A stretch of 64,000 nt of DNA from a candidate division FCPU426 bacterium (lineage in GTDB: Bacteria > Oederibacteriota > Muellerivitia > Muellerivitales > Muellerivitaceae), in NCBI GenBank assembly GCA_963738405.1, contig CAVTWJ010000014.1, positions 96,001 through 160,000 of the forward strand. The letters run 5' to 3'. Position 1 is the first letter of the stretch, and the number at the start of each line of letters is the position of its first letter. The position numbers are program-made. Shown here piece by piece: positions 27,001-33,000 of the stretch.

Positions 27001-30000
27001 GTGGCAGTGCTGTTATCGCCGACCGTGATGGTGATGGGAGCGCCCCCCACAACATGGGCCATCGCCTTGGAAGGGCAAATGGACGCAATCAGGCCCAGAG
27101 CCAAAAGAAGAGCGGGAAAAAACTTAAGGGTACGCTGTATATAAGAAGAACGCTTCACCTCCCCGTTGGATTTTCTGCTCCGGGTTTGAGATGAAAAAGT
27201 CATTCTTCCTCCTAAGATGCGGTCACGGCTTGAAGGTGGACAAACGATTTAATGAATTGCGTGGTTTGGTAAAACATGAAACCCAAGGTAAATGAGAAGG
27301 TTTCTCATTTACCTTGGGAGGATTAGATAGGGGATGACAATAAAAGGCAAGTTAATTGGAGGGAATATTTTTTGTCGAACGGGCCGCGCCCAACAAAGGG
27401 TTTTGGGGCCCTTTATTACTCAAACCAAAGCCCGATAGCGACCGAACCGGTTAGGCCCGTGACGGTATGGATCACGACTACGCCCGGGTCGGAATCCAGG
27501 GGGGCGTAACGGTAGATGCAGTTGAGGTCGTAAAAGAACCCGCCCCCGCCATTGCCGAACGAGGCTCCCGTGCCCCGGATGCCCATGCCGCACCCGAAAG
27601 CGGGCTGAAGGGGAAAGGAGAGGACGTTCTTGGTGGTGATTTCCTGGCCGTAGCCGCCGATCACCAGGGGGAAATAGATGGCCCCCACCCGGGAACCGAT
27701 GTAGCGGTTGTTTCGGTAGTAGTCGGTTTCGAAATCCAAATCGGCGTCCACTTCCACTTCCCCGCCGGTCAAATAGCCTCCTGCGTCAAAGGCGTCGCCG
27801 AAGGTAAACCCGTTGCCGCTGACCCAGACGGCCAGGCCGTTAGTCATCCAGCCCAGGCTTCCGCCGTAGCTGAAGGAACCGCCCGCCGCGCCCGAGAGCC
27901 CGACGTTTCCCTTCATGCCTATATAGGAGAAGGGATGTTGAATGGCGGAAGTGTAAGCCACGGTGCCCGCGTTGGCGGAACGAAACGAGAATCCAAAAGC
28001 CATCAAGACCCAAGCGAGTACCAAAAACACTTTCTTCACATTGACGCGCATGAACTGCCTCCCCGATTTCACGAATAGATTTTAAATTCTTGGTTAAACG
28101 ACAATCATCACGCTATTTCTACCACTTCTGAATCATCTTGAATAGGAAAGATATGTAAATTGCGGATTGGGCCAAAAAAAAAGCCCCGTCGCTTAAAAAG
28201 CGGCGGGGCCCGTCAGCAGGGATTGATGTTACTTAATGATTTCTATCGTGTTTAACTTTCCGCCCGCGGACTGGTACATCAAATAAACGTTAGCGGGATT
28301 GGAAGCCAGGGCATCGATATCATTCACCGCTTTGCTCTCATTCTTGGAATCCTTCGGTGCCTGGGCTGGGGCTGAAGAACCTGTCAGGCCCAAACCGATC
28401 GGGTCGATGCCTAATCCTGAAAAAACGCCGATGGCCATGGCCGCCGCGCCGCCGGAGGGCGGTGTCCCTCCCGCATTCGCTTGGCCCGCCTGCATGGACA
28501 AACCCAGCGCCAATAAACAAAACAAGATTTTCATCGGTTCAACCCTCCTGAAGTAAAATCCACCGGTGCATTATGTTGAGGGACCCGTTTACAATCAAGC
28601 AAATCCCTGGGCGGTCCGATTTAACCTGGAAAGCGGCCGATGAACCGTAAACGAACCTTTCTTTACCTGGCTTACTTTCTCCTGATTTCGGGCCGCGTCC
28701 CCTGCCCGGGCGCGCCCCCCTATTTGTCCGTGCCCGGCAAAGTCAAACTGGACGCGGTCTGGGTCAAGGAAGAAAGCCCGGAACTCTGCGGGCTCGCCGC
28801 CGTTGAAATGGTCACGGATTATTACGGCCAAAAACTAAACGATGGCCAGAAGGATTTGCTGAGGGCCTGCGCCAAAAAGGGATCGGGTATCAAGGGAAGC
28901 GACCTTTTGATGGTGATTCGGACCTGCGATTACGAGGGGGCGGTTTTTTACGGCACCCTCTCGCCGCAAGGCCCCGCCGGCCTCTACTACAACCTGGGCC
29001 AGCGCAGGCCGCTGATTGTGATGTTGACCTCAAAAGACGGCCGCAACAGCCAATACGACCTGGTCGTGGGTTACCACTTGAAACAAGGTAAAATATTCGT
29101 GCTCGACCCCTCCATCGGGCCCATGGCCTTTTCCATCAAGGATTTCGCCCCGGCCTGGGAAAGGGCCCATTTTTTTACCCTTTTGGCCATGCCGGAAAAA
29201 CGGGTGGATCCGCCCACGCCCTCCACCCGCCGCTGATTTCAGAAGGTTCTTTCTAAAACAAAAAGCCCTCCCCATTCGGGGCGGGCTTTTTTATTGCTAT
29301 TAGTTGCCGTTGGACTTCGCTAATTCGCCTTTTCCACCCTAAAAACCTTGGGGCCCTCGGGGTAATCATCCACCCAAATCTTCACCGTGACCGGCTCGGT
29401 GGAAACCACTTCCCCCTGGTAATGCAAATCGCTTTGGGTAGTCACAATTCCCCGCACCAAAAACTGGTCCGAAGTGCGGTCACTGCCCAGCCATTGGATA
29501 GGCTGGGTGGGTTTGAAATCGGCGTTCCACTTCTTGTCCTGGATTTCCTGGATCTTGGCGGGCGGATAATTTTCGTAGAAGAACCTGTCCTGGTAGTTCT
29601 CGAAGAGTTCGCCCTTCAAATTCCCCATCCAGCCCTGGATATCGTGGTAGCTGGGGCCGAAAAGATAGTCGATAAAGCCCTTTACGAATAACAGGTGCGC
29701 CTGGACCCTGGCTTGATCCTTGGGGGATAGGGCTAATCCGGTAGGTGAAGGCACCTGTGTCTGGGCCACAAGCCCAGACACACGGTTTGGTTGTGCCGGT
29801 TCCTTAGTGGAACCGGCCAAATGGTGGTGGTTCTTTTTGGCGAATGAAGTATTAACCACAGGGGTTGGAACAGACGCAGGGGGCATTTCAACCACCTTTG
29901 GGGCCGATTCACTTTCTTTTTTCGTTTCAGTCGGCAAAAGGCGGCCCAATAGGGGCATCCACATTCCTCGGAAGTACCAACTAGCCCCCAACAAAACCGC

Positions 30001-33000
30001 GATAAAAATGATCCAACCTAAATCCTGTTTAAAAATCTTGTGAATCGACCAGATCAAAACCGCGCCTACTGCCAACACCACCAGAGGATTGGCGAGGGCC
30101 TTCGCCAAAACCCATAGGATCAAACGGATCGCCAAGTGGAACAGGAAAGACCAGGTATTGTCAATCAAGGGGCCCACGATGGGGATGAAGTGGCCGATGA
30201 AGCTGAGGATGCCGACGATACTGCTATAGGAAAACAGCACGCAAAACCAATAGAGCCCCCAATGCCCGAGAAAACGAAAGAGGTTTGGAGTGGACGAAGA
30301 ACCCCCATGCTTTCGGCTGGAACGTGAGTGGAGGGGGCAAAAATAGCCCGCCGTGGCCTTGGCGCCTTCGTGGACGTACTTGTGGATCAAACGGGCTGTG
30401 AATTTGAGGCTTGTCAACAGGCCTTTACCGCCTGCTTTTTGAAGCTGTTTGAGAGCCTTTTGGGCGCCCTTTCCTTTTTTCTTTTTCTTCTTTCCCGGTT
30501 CAGCTTCGGTTTCTTCCTCCTGACCCTCCTCCTCATCCTCTTCGGGTTCTTCATCGTCCCCGGCCTTGCGGCTCTTTCGCTTGACCTTCGTATGGTCGAA
30601 TTCCTGGGCCGGTTTGCCGCTGGCGATATGGCTAACCAAGGCGTCTATTTGCAGTGGTATTAAATGACGGGCAATGACCTGGTCCAGGGATTCATGGAGT
30701 GCCTTGGGAAGATCGGGCACCTTGCCTCTTAGTTTGGTTAAAGATAAGGCGCAGTTTGATGAAAGGATGAAAGGTGGGTTGGATTGGGCCGCTTGGCGGA
30801 CCTTGTCTAGGGCCGCAGGATCAAAACAGGCATTTATAGCGAGAAGAGTGGTGATATGACTGTCTTTCAGTTGAAGGGCAGCTTTTAGTACCTCTCTCTT
30901 GGGCTTCTTACCCTCTCGGAATTGGGCTTTTAACGCCTCTAGCTGATCTAGCCAATCAAGGGTTTCAGGATTCACATTACCCATATAGGTCACCTCCATA
31001 GAGATAAAACGGCTTTTATACATTTCCAGATCAAACCTGCCGGTGGCTTTGCCCCTTCCGCCGGTAGGTTCACGGCGTTCTGCCGGCGGCTTTGCCCCTT
31101 CCGCCGGTAGGTTAAAGGGGTTCTGCCGGTGGCTTTACCCCTTCTGCCGGTAGGTTAAAGGCGTTCTGCCGGTGGCTTTACCCCTTCTGCCGGTAGGTTA
31201 AAGGCGTTCTGCCGGTGGCTTATCCCATTCTGCCGGTAGGTTAAAGGGGTTCTGCCGGTGGCTTTACCCCTTCTGCCGGTAGGTTCACGGCGTTCTGCCG
31301 GTGGCTTATCCCATTCTGCCGGTAGGTTCAGCGATGCCATTAACCGGGTTGGGGTATCAGCCAGTCGATCCGGCCATGCCCCCTAGCTAAAGATTATTAT
31401 TTTCAAAAATGGGAGGTTTTCAATTCACATTCGTGAACTTTGATTTGTTTTGGGGTTGGCTGGTAAAAAAAGGGGCTAAATCGGCCAAAAAAAGTACAAA
31501 AACGATCATCCACGAACTTGTATCTAAAGAGGTTTTGGCATTTTCACCCATGGGCAATTTTGTTGGATATAAAAAAGGATATCAAACAAACCCTCCATGT
31601 CCATTACGGGAAAAGTACCCTGTCGAACTCGAAACTCGTAAACGTAGCCGGTCTTTTCAAGGCCTCCCCCGAACCTCCCTCCTACGATCCCGTATCTTTC
31701 GACCTTGGCGATTTCTTGAACCTCCCTTAAAGGAATCATCAAGTTTTGGGAAGGGGACCGCAAGGTGAGGAAGCCCTTTTCGTCGTCCAGGAACACCCCA
31801 TTGGCGGTTTTCATGATTTTTTGAACGCCCGACCATCCCGCGATATCGGCCCCAAGGATCAAGGCCAGGTATAAAACGGAGGTTCCGCCGGGCCCTTGGC
31901 CGCGCAAGAGGCTCCCGATCATGTCAAAAATAAGGTTTAAGGTTCCGATAAAAAAAACAAAAACAATCAGGAAGAAGGGCCCGTTTTTCAACATCGATTC
32001 ACGGCAGGCAATCATGGTGCCGGCCCCCTTATTTTTTATAGGCAATGACCCCGAATTTTTCAAAGGCCCTTAATATCGAGCCCTGATAGACCGGAACTTT
32101 TTTCACATCCAGGATGCCCCCGATTGAATCGGAGGCGGAGGGATAATGATCCAAGAGGATTTCCCCGTCTTGGGTCGTTACCTGGAAGTAGGTTTGATCG
32201 GAGGTTGTCTCCATGCGGTAAACCCCCTTCCATGGCGGAACCGTTCCATCATCGACCCTGGACCAATTTTTTCCCCGATCCAGCACTCCGCCCGCCGATT
32301 GGATGCTGTCATTGACGTTTTGGTCGATATCCGCCCCCAGATCCTTGGCGATGGATGCCAATGAATCGCCATAGGATTGGACCGTCGTCACGTTGCCCGC
32401 GGCTCCCGCGGCGAAGTCCAACGCCACGTTCTGTCCCGTTTGAACCGCAACACCGCCGATGAGACTCAATTGCCGGTCGCTCAAACTGAGATCCCCATGG
32501 GTATAAAAATTCTTGCCCGTAAGCCCCTCCCCGAAGCTGACCACATTGCCCACGACCGGCACACCGCCCACCACGAGATGGGCAAGCGCGTCCTTAATCC
32601 GTTTTTCATAATCCTTAGGGATGTAACCGCCCGAAAAGGGGGAATCTTGGTAGACCGGTTCCGACATGAATTGAGGGTCCGCGGCGGGAACCAAACCGGA
32701 TTCATCCGCTTCCATTGAAAAATCGGATTTTCGCTTTTGATAAAGCGCGGAGAATCGATTCATCATTTCAACGAATTCCTGGGCGGGCATCGGTTTCGCG
32801 GCCGTGAGATAGGGCTGGGCCGCGCCGGCTATCCTCTCGAATTCATCCTCCCCGCCCTCCCCCGTATGGATGGCGGATAAACCCGCCATGGCCGTTTGGA
32901 ATTCTTTCTTACCGGCGGTTCCCTTACCCGGCTGATAACCCAAGTCTTTCAGGTATTGCCTCAAATGGGCCGCGCGCTCGTCCAGCGTTTTGTGGGAGGC

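What a model noticed while it worked through the whole genome (the two positions that open the first line are those of the whole stretch)
29320..31345. Six membrane proteins with a ParB-type DNA-binding head, each behind its own array of phased direct repeats
Six paralogous genes encode proteins with an N-terminal ParB/Noc-fold DNA-binding domain (no CTPase domain), a membrane block, and a VirB8-like or PDZ-like C-terminal domain. The genes are C14:125320-126984, C9:24949-27114, C12:78082-80184, C14:238826-240841, C4:46873-48501 and C5:686-2257. Directly upstream of each gene lies an array of 8-14 direct repeats spaced 21-22 bp, with a core word unique to that paralog. I propose that each array is the cognate binding platform of the neighbouring protein, making this a membrane-anchored DNA-binding module of a kind not described before.
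Evidence so far: - **No known family.** No Pfam match at E<=1. - **N-domain fold.** Model pLDDT 84.1. VIA Z 11.0, rmsd 2.6 A over 103 aa to ParB 7bnr_B, with the top 11 entries all ParB/Noc/Spo0J. Foldseek probability is about 1 but E is 0.08-0.3. - **Membrane block.** Calls 80 and 123. - **C-terminal domain.** It matches VirB8/DotI/IcmL periplasmic domains at E 3e-5, TM 0.75. - **Arrays here.** Units are listed in call 68, and the word is on the gene strand in 6 of 6. Only 15 such arrays exist in 3.18 Mb, and 6 of them lie before the 6 genes. - **Relatives.** 13 of 14 fetched strong-hit loci have an upstream array with another word, the 14th has one by eye, and 0 of 12 weak-hit loci have one. 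- **Rarity.** [...]
(Added by a program. Inside this text positions count along the whole contig: contig position 96,001 is position 1 of the stretch shown here. "Call 12" and the like, gene names such as g00115 and contig names such as C1 are that model's own, and its searches are not shown. The text may have been shortened before it was handed on; [...] marks where a part breaks off. The agent that wrote the report below was given it as the finding of a first reader that could run no searches.)

Follow-up and report, generated by a model that had tools for sequence, protein, structure and literature searches.

The report
Membrane-anchored ParB-like proteins with private DNA arrays
An uncultured bacterium carries a family of membrane-embedded proteins whose DNA-binding head comes from the chromosome-partition protein ParB; each gene sits behind its own row of evenly spaced short DNA repeats, the likely docking sites, an arrangement not found in the papers searched.

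Summary
Window 29320-30984(-) encodes a 554-aa protein with four parts:
- a ParB-type helix-turn-helix head that lacks the ParB_N CTPase domain;
- a charged linker;
- a hydrophobic block of 3-4 segments;
- a VirB8/NTF2-like C-domain.

Upstream, at 31037-31328, lie 14 CCGGCAG units spaced alternately 21 and 22 bp.

**In this genome.** Five paralogs have the same layout. My detector finds 11 such arrays in 3.18 Mb, and 6 of them sit before these 6 genes.

**In relatives.** 34 of 35 short-head genes have an upstream tandem array. None of 26 weak-hit genes does; most of those carry a ParB_N head.

**New here.**
- This genome also has 8 "long-head" membrane paralogs that keep ParB_N. A profile comparison with such long heads ties the short head to ParB (probability 99.6%).
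- The word of an array tracks the recognition helix.
- The same word recurs as phased arrays at other loci, only in genomes that hold the cognate gene. Several of these lie in 3'-3' gaps, so the arrays are not only promoter operators.

**Best reading (confidence 0.55).** A site-specific, membrane-anchored DNA binder that docks on its array, throttles its own gene and pins array-marked DNA to the membrane. Nothing is shown experimentally.

The scan noted the same module before on another piece of this genome (e1-753778).

The parts
29320..30984 (-). Gene for the 554-aa short-head membrane ParB-like protein (stop codon 29320-29322)
   Evidence: ORF. The start at 30984 is chosen from the GGAGG 8 nt upstream and from the paralog alignment. 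tblastn finds five full-length paralogs.
30580..30984 (-). N-terminal ParB-type HTH DNA-binding domain (residues 1-135). Helix 30-37, turn, then recognition helix 41-53. No ParB_N/CTPase part.
   Evidence: Model pLDDT 84.2. ParB/Noc/Spo0J fill the top rows. hhalign to long-head paralogs gives probability 99.6%, E 8.8e-24. The PDB sequence-profile search found nothing.
30259..30579 (-). Charged low-complexity linker: an acidic run, then a lysine run and a basic stretch before the membrane block (9 K/R against 1 D/E in residues 185-240)
   Evidence: Translation, charge count. The only Pfam hits fall here and are below cut-off.
29950..30258 (-). Hydrophobic block, residues 243-345, with 3-4 membrane-spanning segments
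   Evidence: Kyte-Doolittle windows. The block is conserved in all six paralogs.
29323..29739 (-). C-terminal VirB8/NTF2-like domain (residues 416-554), reached through a Pro/Thr/Ser-rich linker (29740-29949)
   Evidence: Model pLDDT 94.1. CagV, DotI, IcmL, TraM and VirB8 match at E 1e-5 to 1e-3, TM 0.6-0.76. The same domain is found in 16 other proteins.
30993..30997 (-). Shine-Dalgarno GGAGG, 8 nt before the ATG
   Evidence: Sequence. GGAGG-like sites sit 5-8 nt before the starts of the paralogs and relatives.
31037..31328 (-). Array of 14 direct repeats with core (A)CCGGCAG(AA), spaced 21/22 bp alternately (43-bp double unit)
   Evidence: TRF, unit list. Phased pairs of the word occur nowhere else in this genome or in three congeners.
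31396..31423 (-). Candidate sigma-70-type promoter TTGAAA-16-AATAAT upstream of the array. If used, the array lies in the transcribed leader.
   Evidence: Consensus scan, 10 of 12. A similar site lies upstream of the array in 11 of 37 loci, against 3 of 37 on the other strand and a mean of 3.1 in shuffles.
31015..31020 (-). Alternative weak -10-like TATAAA. The last repeat core (31037-31043) would then lie at the -35 position.
   Evidence: Read from the sequence. The scan did not report it. Inference only.
29260..29291 (.). GC-rich hairpin flanked by A and T runs, between the convergent gene ends. Likely a two-way terminator, which would make the gene monocistronic.
   Evidence: Inverted repeat I2 and a terminator-like site on the + strand at 29265-29282.

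Best explanation
The gene encodes an inner-membrane protein whose cytoplasmic head is a ParB-type helix-turn-helix domain that has lost the CTP-binding ParB_N part.

**Proposed mechanism**
- One head recognises one roughly 9-12-bp word.
- The 14 words upstream of the gene lie two helical turns apart, so all face the same side of the DNA.
- Many membrane-held protomers can therefore dock side by side and build a large nucleoprotein pad at the membrane.
- This hard-wired row of sites would do what CTP-driven sliding does for canonical ParB.

**Proposed consequences**
1. The protein limits its own transcription, because the array lies between a likely promoter and the start codon, or overlaps the promoter.
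2. The array-marked DNA is held at the membrane.

Each paralog has its own word. Several also have further arrays elsewhere in the genome.

**Shown in silico:** the domain identities, the arrays, their association with the gene family, word-helix covariation, and the recurrence of words.

**Inferred:** binding itself, its stoichiometry, the sign of regulation, membrane tethering, and the role and side of the C-domain.
For: **The head is ParB-derived**
- hhalign of 39 short heads against 28 long heads: probability 99.6%, E 8.8e-24. The short head (5-141) aligns with the region after ParB_N (117-260).
- 21 of 28 long heads match Pfam ParB_N, 5 of 28 HTH_ParB and 1 of 28 KorB.
- Fold: Z 10.7 to ParB 7bnr_B, and the top 11 rows are all ParB/Noc/Spo0J.

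**Association of array and gene**
- 6 of the 11 arrays in this genome lie before the 6 genes.
- In relatives, 27 of 35 short-head genes have an array by the strict detector and 34 of 35 with TRF or relaxed rules. 0 of 26 weak-hit genes and 0 of 4 own long-head genes have one. The only 4 other arrays in 233 kb of these loci lie further upstream of short-head genes.

**The units look like sites**
- The conserved core has a median of 9 nt. 25 of 34 arrays have at least 4 unconserved columns out of 22.
- Spacings are 21/22, 33 or 52-53 bp.

**Specificity**
- On 38 pairs, word similarity against recognition-helix identity gives r 0.22, p 2e-4. The partial correlation given scaffold identity is r 0.17, p 2e-4.
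- Examples: helices of type KSQV go with CGGAA, and DS[QH]IT goes with GGCA.

**Action in trans**
- The C12 word has 8 units at C18:7554-7797. The C14b word occurs 4 times in the C23 orphan array.
- 6 words were each searched in 5 genomes. 4 of them have extra phased arrays, and only in genomes with the cognate gene. G051 has 5 extra places for a word, while its congener G050 has neither the word nor the gene. Reversed-pattern controls gave 1 match in all.

**Membrane**
- Hydrophobic block with 9 K/R before it.
- The C-domain fold is that of the membrane-proximal domains VirB8, DotI, ARC6 and Tim44.

**Regulation**
- Arrays run to within 10-30 nt of the ribosome site in many loci.
- Promoter-like sites lie upstream of the array in 11 of 37 loci.
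Against: - There are no binding, expression or localisation data. No RNA run was listed.
- Gene and array duplicate together, so co-location and part of the covariation could come from common descent. Word similarity also tracks the scaffold (r 0.25), and related sequences inflate Mantel tests.
- ParB-type heads normally bind palindromes as dimers. These words are asymmetric direct repeats, and heads 21 bp apart cannot touch each other.
- The window's own word has no second array, so tethering of other loci does not apply to this paralog.
- Four orphan arrays in this genome carry two words (TTCACCGGAAA and TCGCTTAAT) and have no cognate short-head gene in the assembly. The assembly is 90.7% complete.
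- Topology is unresolved. With four spans the VirB8-like domain would be cytoplasmic.
- The PDB sequence-profile search found no ParB, and the Foldseek E-values are weak.
Confidence: 0.55

Rival explanations
1. This is a ToxR-type transmembrane transcription regulator with a ParB-type head. The C-terminal domain, outside the membrane, senses a signal or a partner. The arrays are operators, and the main job is to switch the gene itself and a small regulon on or off. Membrane tethering is only a by-product.
For: - The architecture is a DNA-binding head, then a membrane block, then an outer domain.
- The family has expanded by lineage and varies in its C-domains, which are VirB8-like in some members and of another type in C9, C12 and C14b.
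- 7 of 13 orphan-array regions lie in tandem or divergent gaps where promoters are expected, for example before a Cache histidine kinase, a TMEM175 channel and a GT4 transferase.
- Transmembrane regulators are widespread and use more than 100 kinds of DNA-binding domain (PMC10269533, passages read).
Against: - 6 of 13 orphan-array regions lie between convergent gene ends. Two of them have Pfam-supported genes on both sides (C18 and L090).
- 6-21 sites per array is far more than an operator needs.
- No conserved target gene lies next to the module within 1.5 kb.
- The survey's Table S1B lists KorB among the domains not found in such regulators and never names ParB.
Confidence: 0.25
2. The arrays are not bound by the neighbouring protein. 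They would be sites for another factor, for example a long-head ParB paralog, or elements of the transcribed leader that act as RNA. They would travel with the gene only because the two duplicate as one piece.
For: - Promoter-like sites lie upstream of the array in 11 of 37 loci, so many arrays may be transcribed.
- The window array as RNA folds somewhat better than shuffles, with z -2.44.
- Two orphan words in this genome have no cognate short-head gene.
- Eight long-head paralogs have no known sites.
Against: - Words differ between paralogs and follow the recognition helix even after controlling for scaffold identity.
- Orphan arrays occur on either strand and between convergent genes, which does not fit a leader RNA.
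- There is no Rfam match.
- Spacing in whole helical turns points to protein on double-stranded DNA.
Confidence: 0.1
3. Gene plus array is a selfish or mobile maintenance module, like a plasmid centromere with its binding protein or iterons. It is either left from integrated elements or spreads on its own. The orphan arrays would be its scars.
For: - Distribution is patchy: 19 of 99 genomes of the phylum, with 1-12 matches per genome and different sets in congeners.
- The family is rare: 57 representatives at E<=1e-30 among 1.84 billion.
- Some orphan arrays lie beside IS3-like genes or a serine recombinase, and one array is split by an IS.
- Direct-repeat arrays next to the gene of their binding protein are the rule for plasmid partition sites (recalled).
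Against: - No partner ATPase, replication, transposase or integrase gene recurs within 1.5 kb.
- The modules sit on contigs of 97-375 kb with ordinary neighbours and ordinary GC content.
- Only a weak 15-nt A/T-rich inverted repeat brackets the window module.
Confidence: 0.1

Closest known systems
Noc of Bacillus subtilis with its NBS sites (ParB paralog; PMC4331003 and PMC8429893, seen as search listing and abstract starts only)
   Same: Both have a ParB-family DNA-binding head and recognise sequence-specific sites. Both bring DNA to the cytoplasmic membrane as a large nucleoprotein complex. Noc structures are among the best fold matches (Z 10.0-10.6).
   Different: - Noc keeps the ParB_N CTPase and spreads from single 16-bp palindromic sites.
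- It holds the membrane only through an N-terminal amphipathic helix under CTP control.
- The protein here has no ParB_N and is an integral membrane protein with a VirB8-like domain.
- Its sites are rows of asymmetric direct repeats beside its own gene, and it comes in many paralogs with different words.
KorB of plasmid RK2 and canonical ParB-parS
   Same: The HTH fold is shared (KorB 8qa8 Z 7.6-7.9, 1r71 Z 6.9). One long-head relative matches Pfam KorB. Like these proteins, it may regulate its own expression from sites near its gene.
   Different: - There is no CTPase domain, no C-terminal dimerisation domain and no ParA or KorA partner nearby.
- The sites are direct repeats, not palindromes.
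Plasmid centromere arrays with their binding proteins, such as SopB-sopC of F (a ParB-family protein on tandem repeats), ParR-parC of R1 and ParG-parH (recalled, not read here)
   Same: All have a row of some ten direct repeats directly beside the gene of the protein that binds them. Many protomers sit on one DNA segment. The array doubles as an operator for autoregulation. SopB's DNA-binding domain is a weak fold match (3mkw Z 5.7).
   Different: - No motor ATPase gene is present.
- The protein is membrane-integral.
- The location is chromosomal.
- There are 6 short-head and 8 long-head copies per genome.
Transmembrane transcription regulators such as ToxR, TcpP, CadC and VtrA (survey PMC10269533; passages and a supplement search)
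   Same: The order of parts is the same: a cytoplasmic DNA-binding head, then a membrane anchor, then an outer domain. These regulators act on DNA from the membrane and show lineage-specific expansion.
   Different: - Their heads are mostly OmpR-type winged helix or other HTH families. The survey lists KorB among domains not found in such regulators and does not mention ParB.
- They use one or a few sites at target promoters, not rows of 6-21 phased sites.
- Several arrays here lie away from promoters.
VirB8 / DotI / TraM / CagV periplasmic domains of type IV secretion systems
   Same: The C-domain has the same NTF2-like fold (E about 1e-5, TM 0.68-0.76). It has the same place in the protein, after a membrane anchor.
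   Different: - No type IV secretion genes lie near the window module (Pfam scan of five neighbour genes).
- No gene family recurs within 1.5 kb of the related short-head genes.
- Sequence identity is only 8-20%.
- The N-terminus is a DNA-binding domain rather than a short tail.

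Membership tests
ParB/KorB/Noc superfamily | ParB-type HTH DNA-binding domain (HTH plus following helices) | tested here: met
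   - hhalign to ParB_N-bearing paralogs gives probability 99.6%, E 8.8e-24.
- VIA Z 10.7 over 107 aa to 7bnr_B, with the top 11 rows all ParB/Noc/Spo0J.
- Pfam HTH_ParB is not matched by the window protein itself.
ParB/KorB/Noc superfamily | N-terminal ParB_N (CTPase) domain with the arginine-rich box | tested here: not met
   The HTH domain starts at residue 1-5 of the protein. There is no Pfam ParB_N match. The domain is present in the long-head paralogs.
ParB/KorB/Noc superfamily | Palindromic 14-16-bp site bound by a dimer | tested here: not met
   The units are asymmetric direct repeats at 21/22-bp spacing.
ParB/KorB/Noc superfamily | Partner ParA-type ATPase gene nearby | tested here: not met
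   The window neighbours are a C39-like peptidase, an M48 peptidase and unknowns. No gene recurs within 1.5 kb in 40 loci.
Transmembrane transcription regulators (ToxR type) | Cytoplasmic DNA-binding domain, membrane span(s) and an outer domain in one protein | tested here: met
   Predicted from sequence only. The number of spans, and so the side of the C-domain, is unresolved.
Transmembrane transcription regulators (ToxR type) | Controls transcription of target genes from promoter-proximal sites | not testable with these tools
   Array positions are mixed. There is one at the gene's own 5' region, and the orphan regions split into 7 tandem or divergent and 6 convergent. No RNA data are available.
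VirB8 family (type IV secretion) | NTF2-like periplasmic domain after an N-terminal membrane anchor | tested here: met
   Foldseek E 9e-6 to 1e-3 to CagV, DotI, IcmL, TraM, TrwG and VirB8.
VirB8 family (type IV secretion) | Encoded within a type IV secretion gene cluster | tested here: not met
   Pfam on five neighbour genes of the window module shows a C39 peptidase, an M48 peptidase and three without a family. No gene family recurs within 1.5 kb in the 40 related loci.
Plasmid-type centromere plus binding protein | Row of direct repeats adjacent to the gene of the binding protein | tested here: met
   6 of 6 own genes and 34 of 35 related genes.
Plasmid-type centromere plus binding protein | Motor NTPase (ParA, ParM or TubZ) in the same operon | tested here: not met
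   The window gene appears to be monocistronic, with a terminator hairpin at 29260-29291. There is no recurring neighbour.

The most novel reading that the evidence does not exclude
This bacterial family runs a multi-channel "address code" between chromosome and membrane. A dozen or more integral-membrane descendants of ParB each pin a private set of array-marked loci to the inner membrane. The short-head forms would have replaced CTP-driven spreading with hard-wired rows of sites. If so, this is a new way for bacteria to organise or partition DNA at the envelope, with specificity that evolves quickly through coupled changes in recognition helix and word.
Probability: 0.25. Interest if true: 0.88.

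Novelty: new variant of a known kind. Interest (0 to 1): 0.72.

Why it matters
- ParB proteins are the model for CTP-switched DNA clamps. Here the same DNA-binding head appears without the switch, welded into the membrane and paired with long phased rows of sites.
- If binding is confirmed, it shows an alternative route to a large ParB-type nucleoprotein complex, using many fixed sites instead of sliding.
- It would also give about 40 natural protein-site pairs with different words on one scaffold. That is a ready-made set for working out a recognition code of the ParB helix-turn-helix, and for building orthogonal DNA-to-membrane tethers or locus labels.
- It adds an unrecorded head type to the transmembrane DNA-binding proteins.
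- It raises the question of what 14 membrane ParB-like proteins do in a 3.2-Mb genome of an uncultured phylum.

Tried and rejected
- **Genome-contig scan:** The search for related loci with the six paralogs gave 80 pattern matches, none confirmed. Relatives were reached through the genome search instead.
- **PDB sequence-profile search** with 39 heads returned only two chance rows with E above 0.5.
- **NCBIfam:** nothing.
- **RNA evidence:** no RNA holder was listed for window:29320-31400.
Whether the C-domain self-associates stays open.
- **Strand bias of the words** relative to the gene was not significant (21 against 14, p 0.31).
- **Conserved neighbour gene:** the only recurring ORF clusters are shadow frames inside the main gene or translated arrays.
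- **Foreign-island reading:** GC is 0.50-0.57 across the module, like its surroundings.
- **Structured RNA reading of the array:** z -2.44 only, and no Rfam family. The weak leader-type rows at 29231-29351 sit on the terminator hairpin and are far below their thresholds.
- **Topology:** simple hydropathy gives 3 or 4 segments depending on the paralog, and 1 in three long-head paralogs. This is not decisive.
- **Literature:** four full-text searches and two papers showed no integral-membrane ParB-type protein with repeat arrays. The supplements of PMC12704722 were not looked at and could list such fusions.

Full report
**1. What is in the window.**

The minus strand holds an ORF at 29320..31023. 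I take ATG 30984 as the start, for two reasons. GGAGG lies at 30993-30997, 8 nt upstream. All paralogs also align from this point. The product has 554 residues.

Directly upstream, Tandem Repeats Finder reports 31037-31328 as period 43 x 6.8 copies (91% matches) and as period 21 x 13.4. Listed unit by unit on the gene strand, there are 14 copies of CCGGCAG (two read CCGGCGG). Their spacing alternates strictly between 21 and 22 bp.

A GC-rich hairpin with A and T runs lies at 29260-29291 between this gene and the convergent gene 28640-29236. The gene is therefore probably transcribed alone.

**2. The protein.**

Pfam gives only sub-threshold low-complexity hits, and NCBIfam gives nothing.

- *Head.* A model of residues 1-139, built on 39 related heads, has pLDDT 84.2 and seven helices.
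  - Foldseek ranks only ParB, Noc and Spo0J chains at the top, with probability about 1 but weak E-values of 0.07-0.3.
  - An independent all-against-representatives alignment puts the ParB DNA-binding domain 6s6h_B first (Z 7.8, 101 aa). KorB and Spo0J follow.
  - The second look at Foldseek's list gives 7bnr_B Z 10.7, rmsd 3.9 A over 107 aa. The top 11 rows are all ParB/Noc/Spo0J.
- *Linker.* After the head come an acidic run and then a lysine run.
- *Membrane block.* Residues 243-345 are hydrophobic, preceded by 9 K/R against 1 D/E.
- *C-domain.* A Pro/Thr-rich linker leads to a 139-residue C-domain. Its model has pLDDT 94.1. It matches the periplasmic domains of CagV, DotI, IcmL, TraM and VirB8 at E 1e-5 to 1e-3 and TM 0.6-0.76. 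It also matches the ARC6/PARC6 intermembrane-space domain and the Tim44 C-domain.

**3. The family is larger than reported, and this ties the head to ParB by sequence.**

It also finds matches in C19, C22, C23, C6, C16 and C1.

These further ORFs are 690-822 residues long. They begin with a ParB_N-like domain, continue with the same kind of HTH region, and then have a membrane segment and the same C-domain (or the second type of C-domain).

- Pfam places ParB_N above its cut-off in the C19 and C6 proteins, and HTH_ParB above its cut-off in the C23 protein.
- A genome-wide ParB_N search adds C5:32599 and also shows one canonical 294-aa-frame ParB at C14:33681.
- ORF listing adds a long-head gene at C23:146116-148545.

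The genome therefore has 6 short-head and 8 long-head membrane ParB-like genes, plus an ordinary ParB.

A profile of 39 short heads aligns with a profile of 28 long-head N-terminal halves at probability 99.6%, E 8.8e-24. Short-head positions 5-141 correspond to long-head positions 117-260, the part that follows ParB_N. Of those 28, 21 match Pfam ParB_N, 5 HTH_ParB and 1 KorB.

The short head is thus a ParB DNA-binding domain that has lost the CTPase part. A sequence-profile search of the PDB alone did not show this.

**4. The arrays are rare and sit before these genes.**

My detector asks for the same 7-mer at least five times in a chain, with spacing of 19-24 bp or double that. It finds 11 arrays in the 3.18-Mb assembly. 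Six lie directly upstream of the six short-head genes, ending 12-116 bp before the start. None of the four own long-head genes in that table has one.

**5. The association holds in relatives.**

- *Distribution.* A profile of the six paralogs matches 19 of 99 genomes of the phylum (G000 included). Without G000 these are 16 of 30 in the same family and one genome in each of two other families.
- *Sampling.* I fetched every place where the head matched and scored the ORFs with a head HMM.
- *Two classes.* The result is bimodal.
  - 35 genes in relatives score E<=1e-29. In most of them the head starts within about 40 residues of the start of the open frame. Where it starts later (up to 126), the extra frame is mostly the translated array. 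One of the 35 is a broken gene.
  - 26 genes score E 1e-6 to 1e-13. In 24 of them the head begins 64-443 residues into the ORF.
- *Arrays, short-head class.* By the strict detector with at least 4 units, 27 of 35 have an array within 450 bp upstream. With TRF and a relaxed look, seven of the eight misses also have tandem arrays. One of these is weak (L042). Four have other periods: 33 bp x 15, 53 bp x 6.6, and 52 bp x 10 and x 6. Only L052 has none. That makes 34 of 35.
- *Arrays, weak class.* None of the 26 weak-hit genes has such an array. One of them has an unrelated 15-bp repeat.
- *Background.* Elsewhere in the 233 kb of these loci there are only four arrays, all further upstream of a short-head gene.
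- *Neighbours.* No neighbouring gene recurs within 1.5 kb.
- *Rarity.* In a library of 1.84 billion cluster representatives, the head profile finds 203 proteins at E<=1e-3 and 57 at E<=1e-30. The split is the same: strong hits start at residue 1 and weak hits at about residue 100.

**6. The units look like protein sites.**

Among 34 arrays with at least six phased units, the longest run of columns conserved at 80% or more has a median of 9 nt (range 6-21). In 25 of the 34, at least 4 of 22 columns are unconserved. A fixed core with a drifting spacer is expected for binding sites and not for a merely recent duplication.

The window's own array is young, however: its 43-bp double unit is 91% conserved. 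The usual 21/22 alternation averages 21.5 bp, two turns of the helix, so all cores lie on one face.

**7. Word and recognition helix change together.**

The most variable part of the head alignment is residues 38-51, the turn and third helix.

On 38 protein-array pairs (L052 dropped for lack of an array), the results were as follows.

| Comparison | r | p |
|---|---|---|
| Word similarity against identity in residues 38-51 | 0.22 | 2e-4 |
| Word similarity against identity in the rest of the domain | 0.25 | 2e-4 |
| Word against helix, given the rest of the domain (partial) | 0.17 | 2e-4 |

Two concrete cases:
- Three proteins with KSQV-type helices have CGGAA-containing words.
- Six proteins with DS[QH]IT helices, the window's among them, have GGCA-containing words. 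One of these arrays has a 33-bp period.

The caveat stands that relatives share both features by descent.

**8. The same words recur elsewhere, only where the cognate gene is.**

*In this genome.*
- The 12-mer of the C12 array occurs 6 times in its own array and 7 times elsewhere, against 0.3 expected. Four of those are in a cluster at C18:7554-7797. Read with up to two mismatches, this cluster is an eight-unit phased array.
- The C14b 12-mer occurs 5 times in its own array and 4 times in an orphan array at C23:369189-369349.
- Four further orphan arrays carry two words with no cognate short-head gene in this 90.7%-complete assembly. C2:116400 and C23:368978 carry TTCACCGGAAA. C1:41835 and C2:197740 carry TCGCTTAAT.

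*In relatives.* I searched six words as phased pairs, each in five genomes.

| Word | Where found |
|---|---|
| AACCCAGTTC | G050: cognate array plus 4 other places. G051: cognate array plus 7 other places. |
| TTTCTGGTAAAC | G051 only: cognate array plus 5 other places. Its congener G050 has neither the word nor such a protein. |
| CCTCGGAA | G052 only: cognate array plus 4 other places. |
| GGTAGACG | G070 only: cognate array plus 2 large arrays. |
| CCGTTGAAG | G044 only: the two cognate arrays. |
| CCGGCAGAA (the window's word) | Its own array only. Absent from three congeners. |

No genome without the cognate gene had a match. The reversed-pattern controls gave one match in all. None of the extra places lies near a head match.

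**9. Where the orphan arrays lie.**

I looked at 13 orphan regions. I left out L089, where an IS splits an array, and L096, which is at a contig end.

| Type of gap | Count | Notes |
|---|---|---|
| Between convergent gene ends | 6 | Two have Pfam-supported genes on both sides: C18 (SfLAP-like and LPG_synthase_TM) and L090 (recombinase and KdpC). |
| Tandem | 5 | For example before a Cache histidine kinase, a TMEM175 channel and a SASA esterase. |
| Divergent | 2 | |

The ORF calls are rough. Taken as they are, the arrays are not confined to promoters. This speaks for a structural role as well as a regulatory one.

**10. Promoter geometry.**

In many loci the array runs to within 10-30 nt of the ribosome site. 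A sigma-70-like site lies on the gene strand within 150 bp upstream of the array in 11 of 37 loci. The comparison figures are 3 of 37 on the other strand, and a mean of 3.1 with a maximum of 9 in 300 shuffles. The -10 element ends 28-69 nt before the first unit in ten of the eleven loci. Only 3 of 37 loci have such a site between the array and the start codon.

In the window the site is TTGAAA-16-AATAAT at 31423-31396. The array is therefore probably part of the transcribed leader in many loci, and a bound protein would act as a roadblock. As RNA the window array folds only modestly better than shuffles (z -2.44), and no Rfam family matches.

**11. Topology.**

Simple hydropathy gives three or four hydrophobic segments in the short-head proteins and one clear segment in three long-head paralogs that share the C-domain. 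The fold relatives of the C-domain all sit on the far side of a membrane from an N-terminal cytoplasmic part, or against a membrane.

An odd number of spans with the C-domain outside is the simplest common solution. Four spans with both ends inside also fits the charge distribution. I leave this open.

**12. Reading.**

The best-supported account has four parts:
- The protein is a membrane-anchored, ParB-derived, site-specific DNA binder.
- Each protomer reads one word.
- The phased row lets many protomers dock on one face of the DNA.
- The complex limits transcription of its own gene and holds array-marked DNA at the membrane.

Rows of fixed sites would replace the CTP-driven spreading that the lost ParB_N domain provides in ParB, Noc and KorB. 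I give this a confidence of 0.55. The bare statement that the array is the cognate site I put at about 0.7.

The rivals are:
- a ToxR-type signal-responsive regulator (0.25);
- arrays that serve another factor or act as RNA (0.1);
- a selfish centromere-like module (0.1).

**13. Comparison with what is known.**

- *Noc.* It is the nearest in function, a ParB paralog that recruits DNA to the membrane (PMC4331003 and PMC8429893; listing and abstract starts only). But Noc is peripheral, CTP-switched, and uses scattered palindromes.
- *Transmembrane transcription regulators.* They share the order of parts. In their survey (PMC10269533) ParB does not occur in the main text, and KorB is listed among DNA-binding domains not found in such regulators.
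- *ParB-CTPase fusion survey.* PMC12704722 does not use the word "transmembrane" in its main text. I did not look at its supplements.
- *Full-text searches.* Four searches found no description of membrane-integral ParB-type proteins with repeat arrays.

I therefore class this as a new variant of known kinds, not a new principle.

The scan had already noted the same module at the C4 paralog of this genome (e1-753778). My tests agree with that note. They add the long-head paralogs, the covariation, the orphan arrays and the promoter geometry.

Noticed in passing
G000 contigs: C19:25491-27605(-), C22:49033-51501(+), C23:8188-10269(-), C6:8844-10916(-), C16:45785-47905(-), C1:103701-105878(+), C5:30577-32877(-), C23:146116-148545(-): Eight "long-head" paralogs, each with ParB_N, then HTH, then a membrane segment, then a VirB8-like or second-type C-domain. 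Several keep a GGHRR-type arginine box. None of the four in my array table (C19, C23:8188, C16, C1) has an upstream array, and the genome-wide detector places none at any of the eight. Integral-membrane proteins with a ParB CTPase head did not turn up in the papers searched.
   Followed up: partly
G000 C2:116400-116645, C23:368978-369160, C1:41835-41955, C2:197740-197890: Four orphan phased arrays carry two words (TTCACCGGAAA, and TCGCTTAAT or its complement). No short-head gene in the assembly matches either word. The cognate binder may be a long-head paralog or a gene in the unassembled 9%.
   Followed up: partly
window 34253-34264 (+): A single perfect copy of the C12 paralog's 12-mer TTTCCGTTGAAA lies in the short gap between two minus-strand genes (33742-34218 and 34243-35025). 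It is one of only three isolated copies in the genome, against 0.3 expected.
   Followed up: no
window 18510-27203 (-): A 2897-aa protein with a signal peptide, hundreds of glycine-rich GG(N/S)GG-type repeats and an autotransporter-like C-terminal barrel. Two small secreted proteins lie at 27416-28072 and 28229-28534.
   Followed up: no
L089 (G051:C35:4800-11000), about 1987-3743: An IS3-like element (two ORFs, 2433-3622) sits between two groups of AACCCAGTT units, as if it had inserted into an orphan array. A TTCTGGTAAA array follows 300 bp further on, so sites for two different paralogs lie side by side. The same is seen at G051:C57 and at own C23.
   Followed up: partly
window 29165-29179 and 31462-31476: A 15-nt A/T-rich inverted repeat (93% complementary) brackets the gene-plus-array module at a distance of 2282 nt. 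It may be chance.
   Followed up: no
G000 C23:63348-65564 and C10:29868-30307: C23 holds a CRISPR-like array with a 37-nt repeat at 72-73-bp period. C10 holds a perfect 17-bp tandem repeat of 25.9 copies.
   Followed up: no
contig ends: G000 C5:686-2493, G051:C37:65-644, G051:C48:52-124, G044:C50:986: Several modules or arrays lie at the very ends of contigs. The arrays probably break assemblies, so counts of modules and orphan arrays in draft genomes are lower bounds.
   Followed up: no
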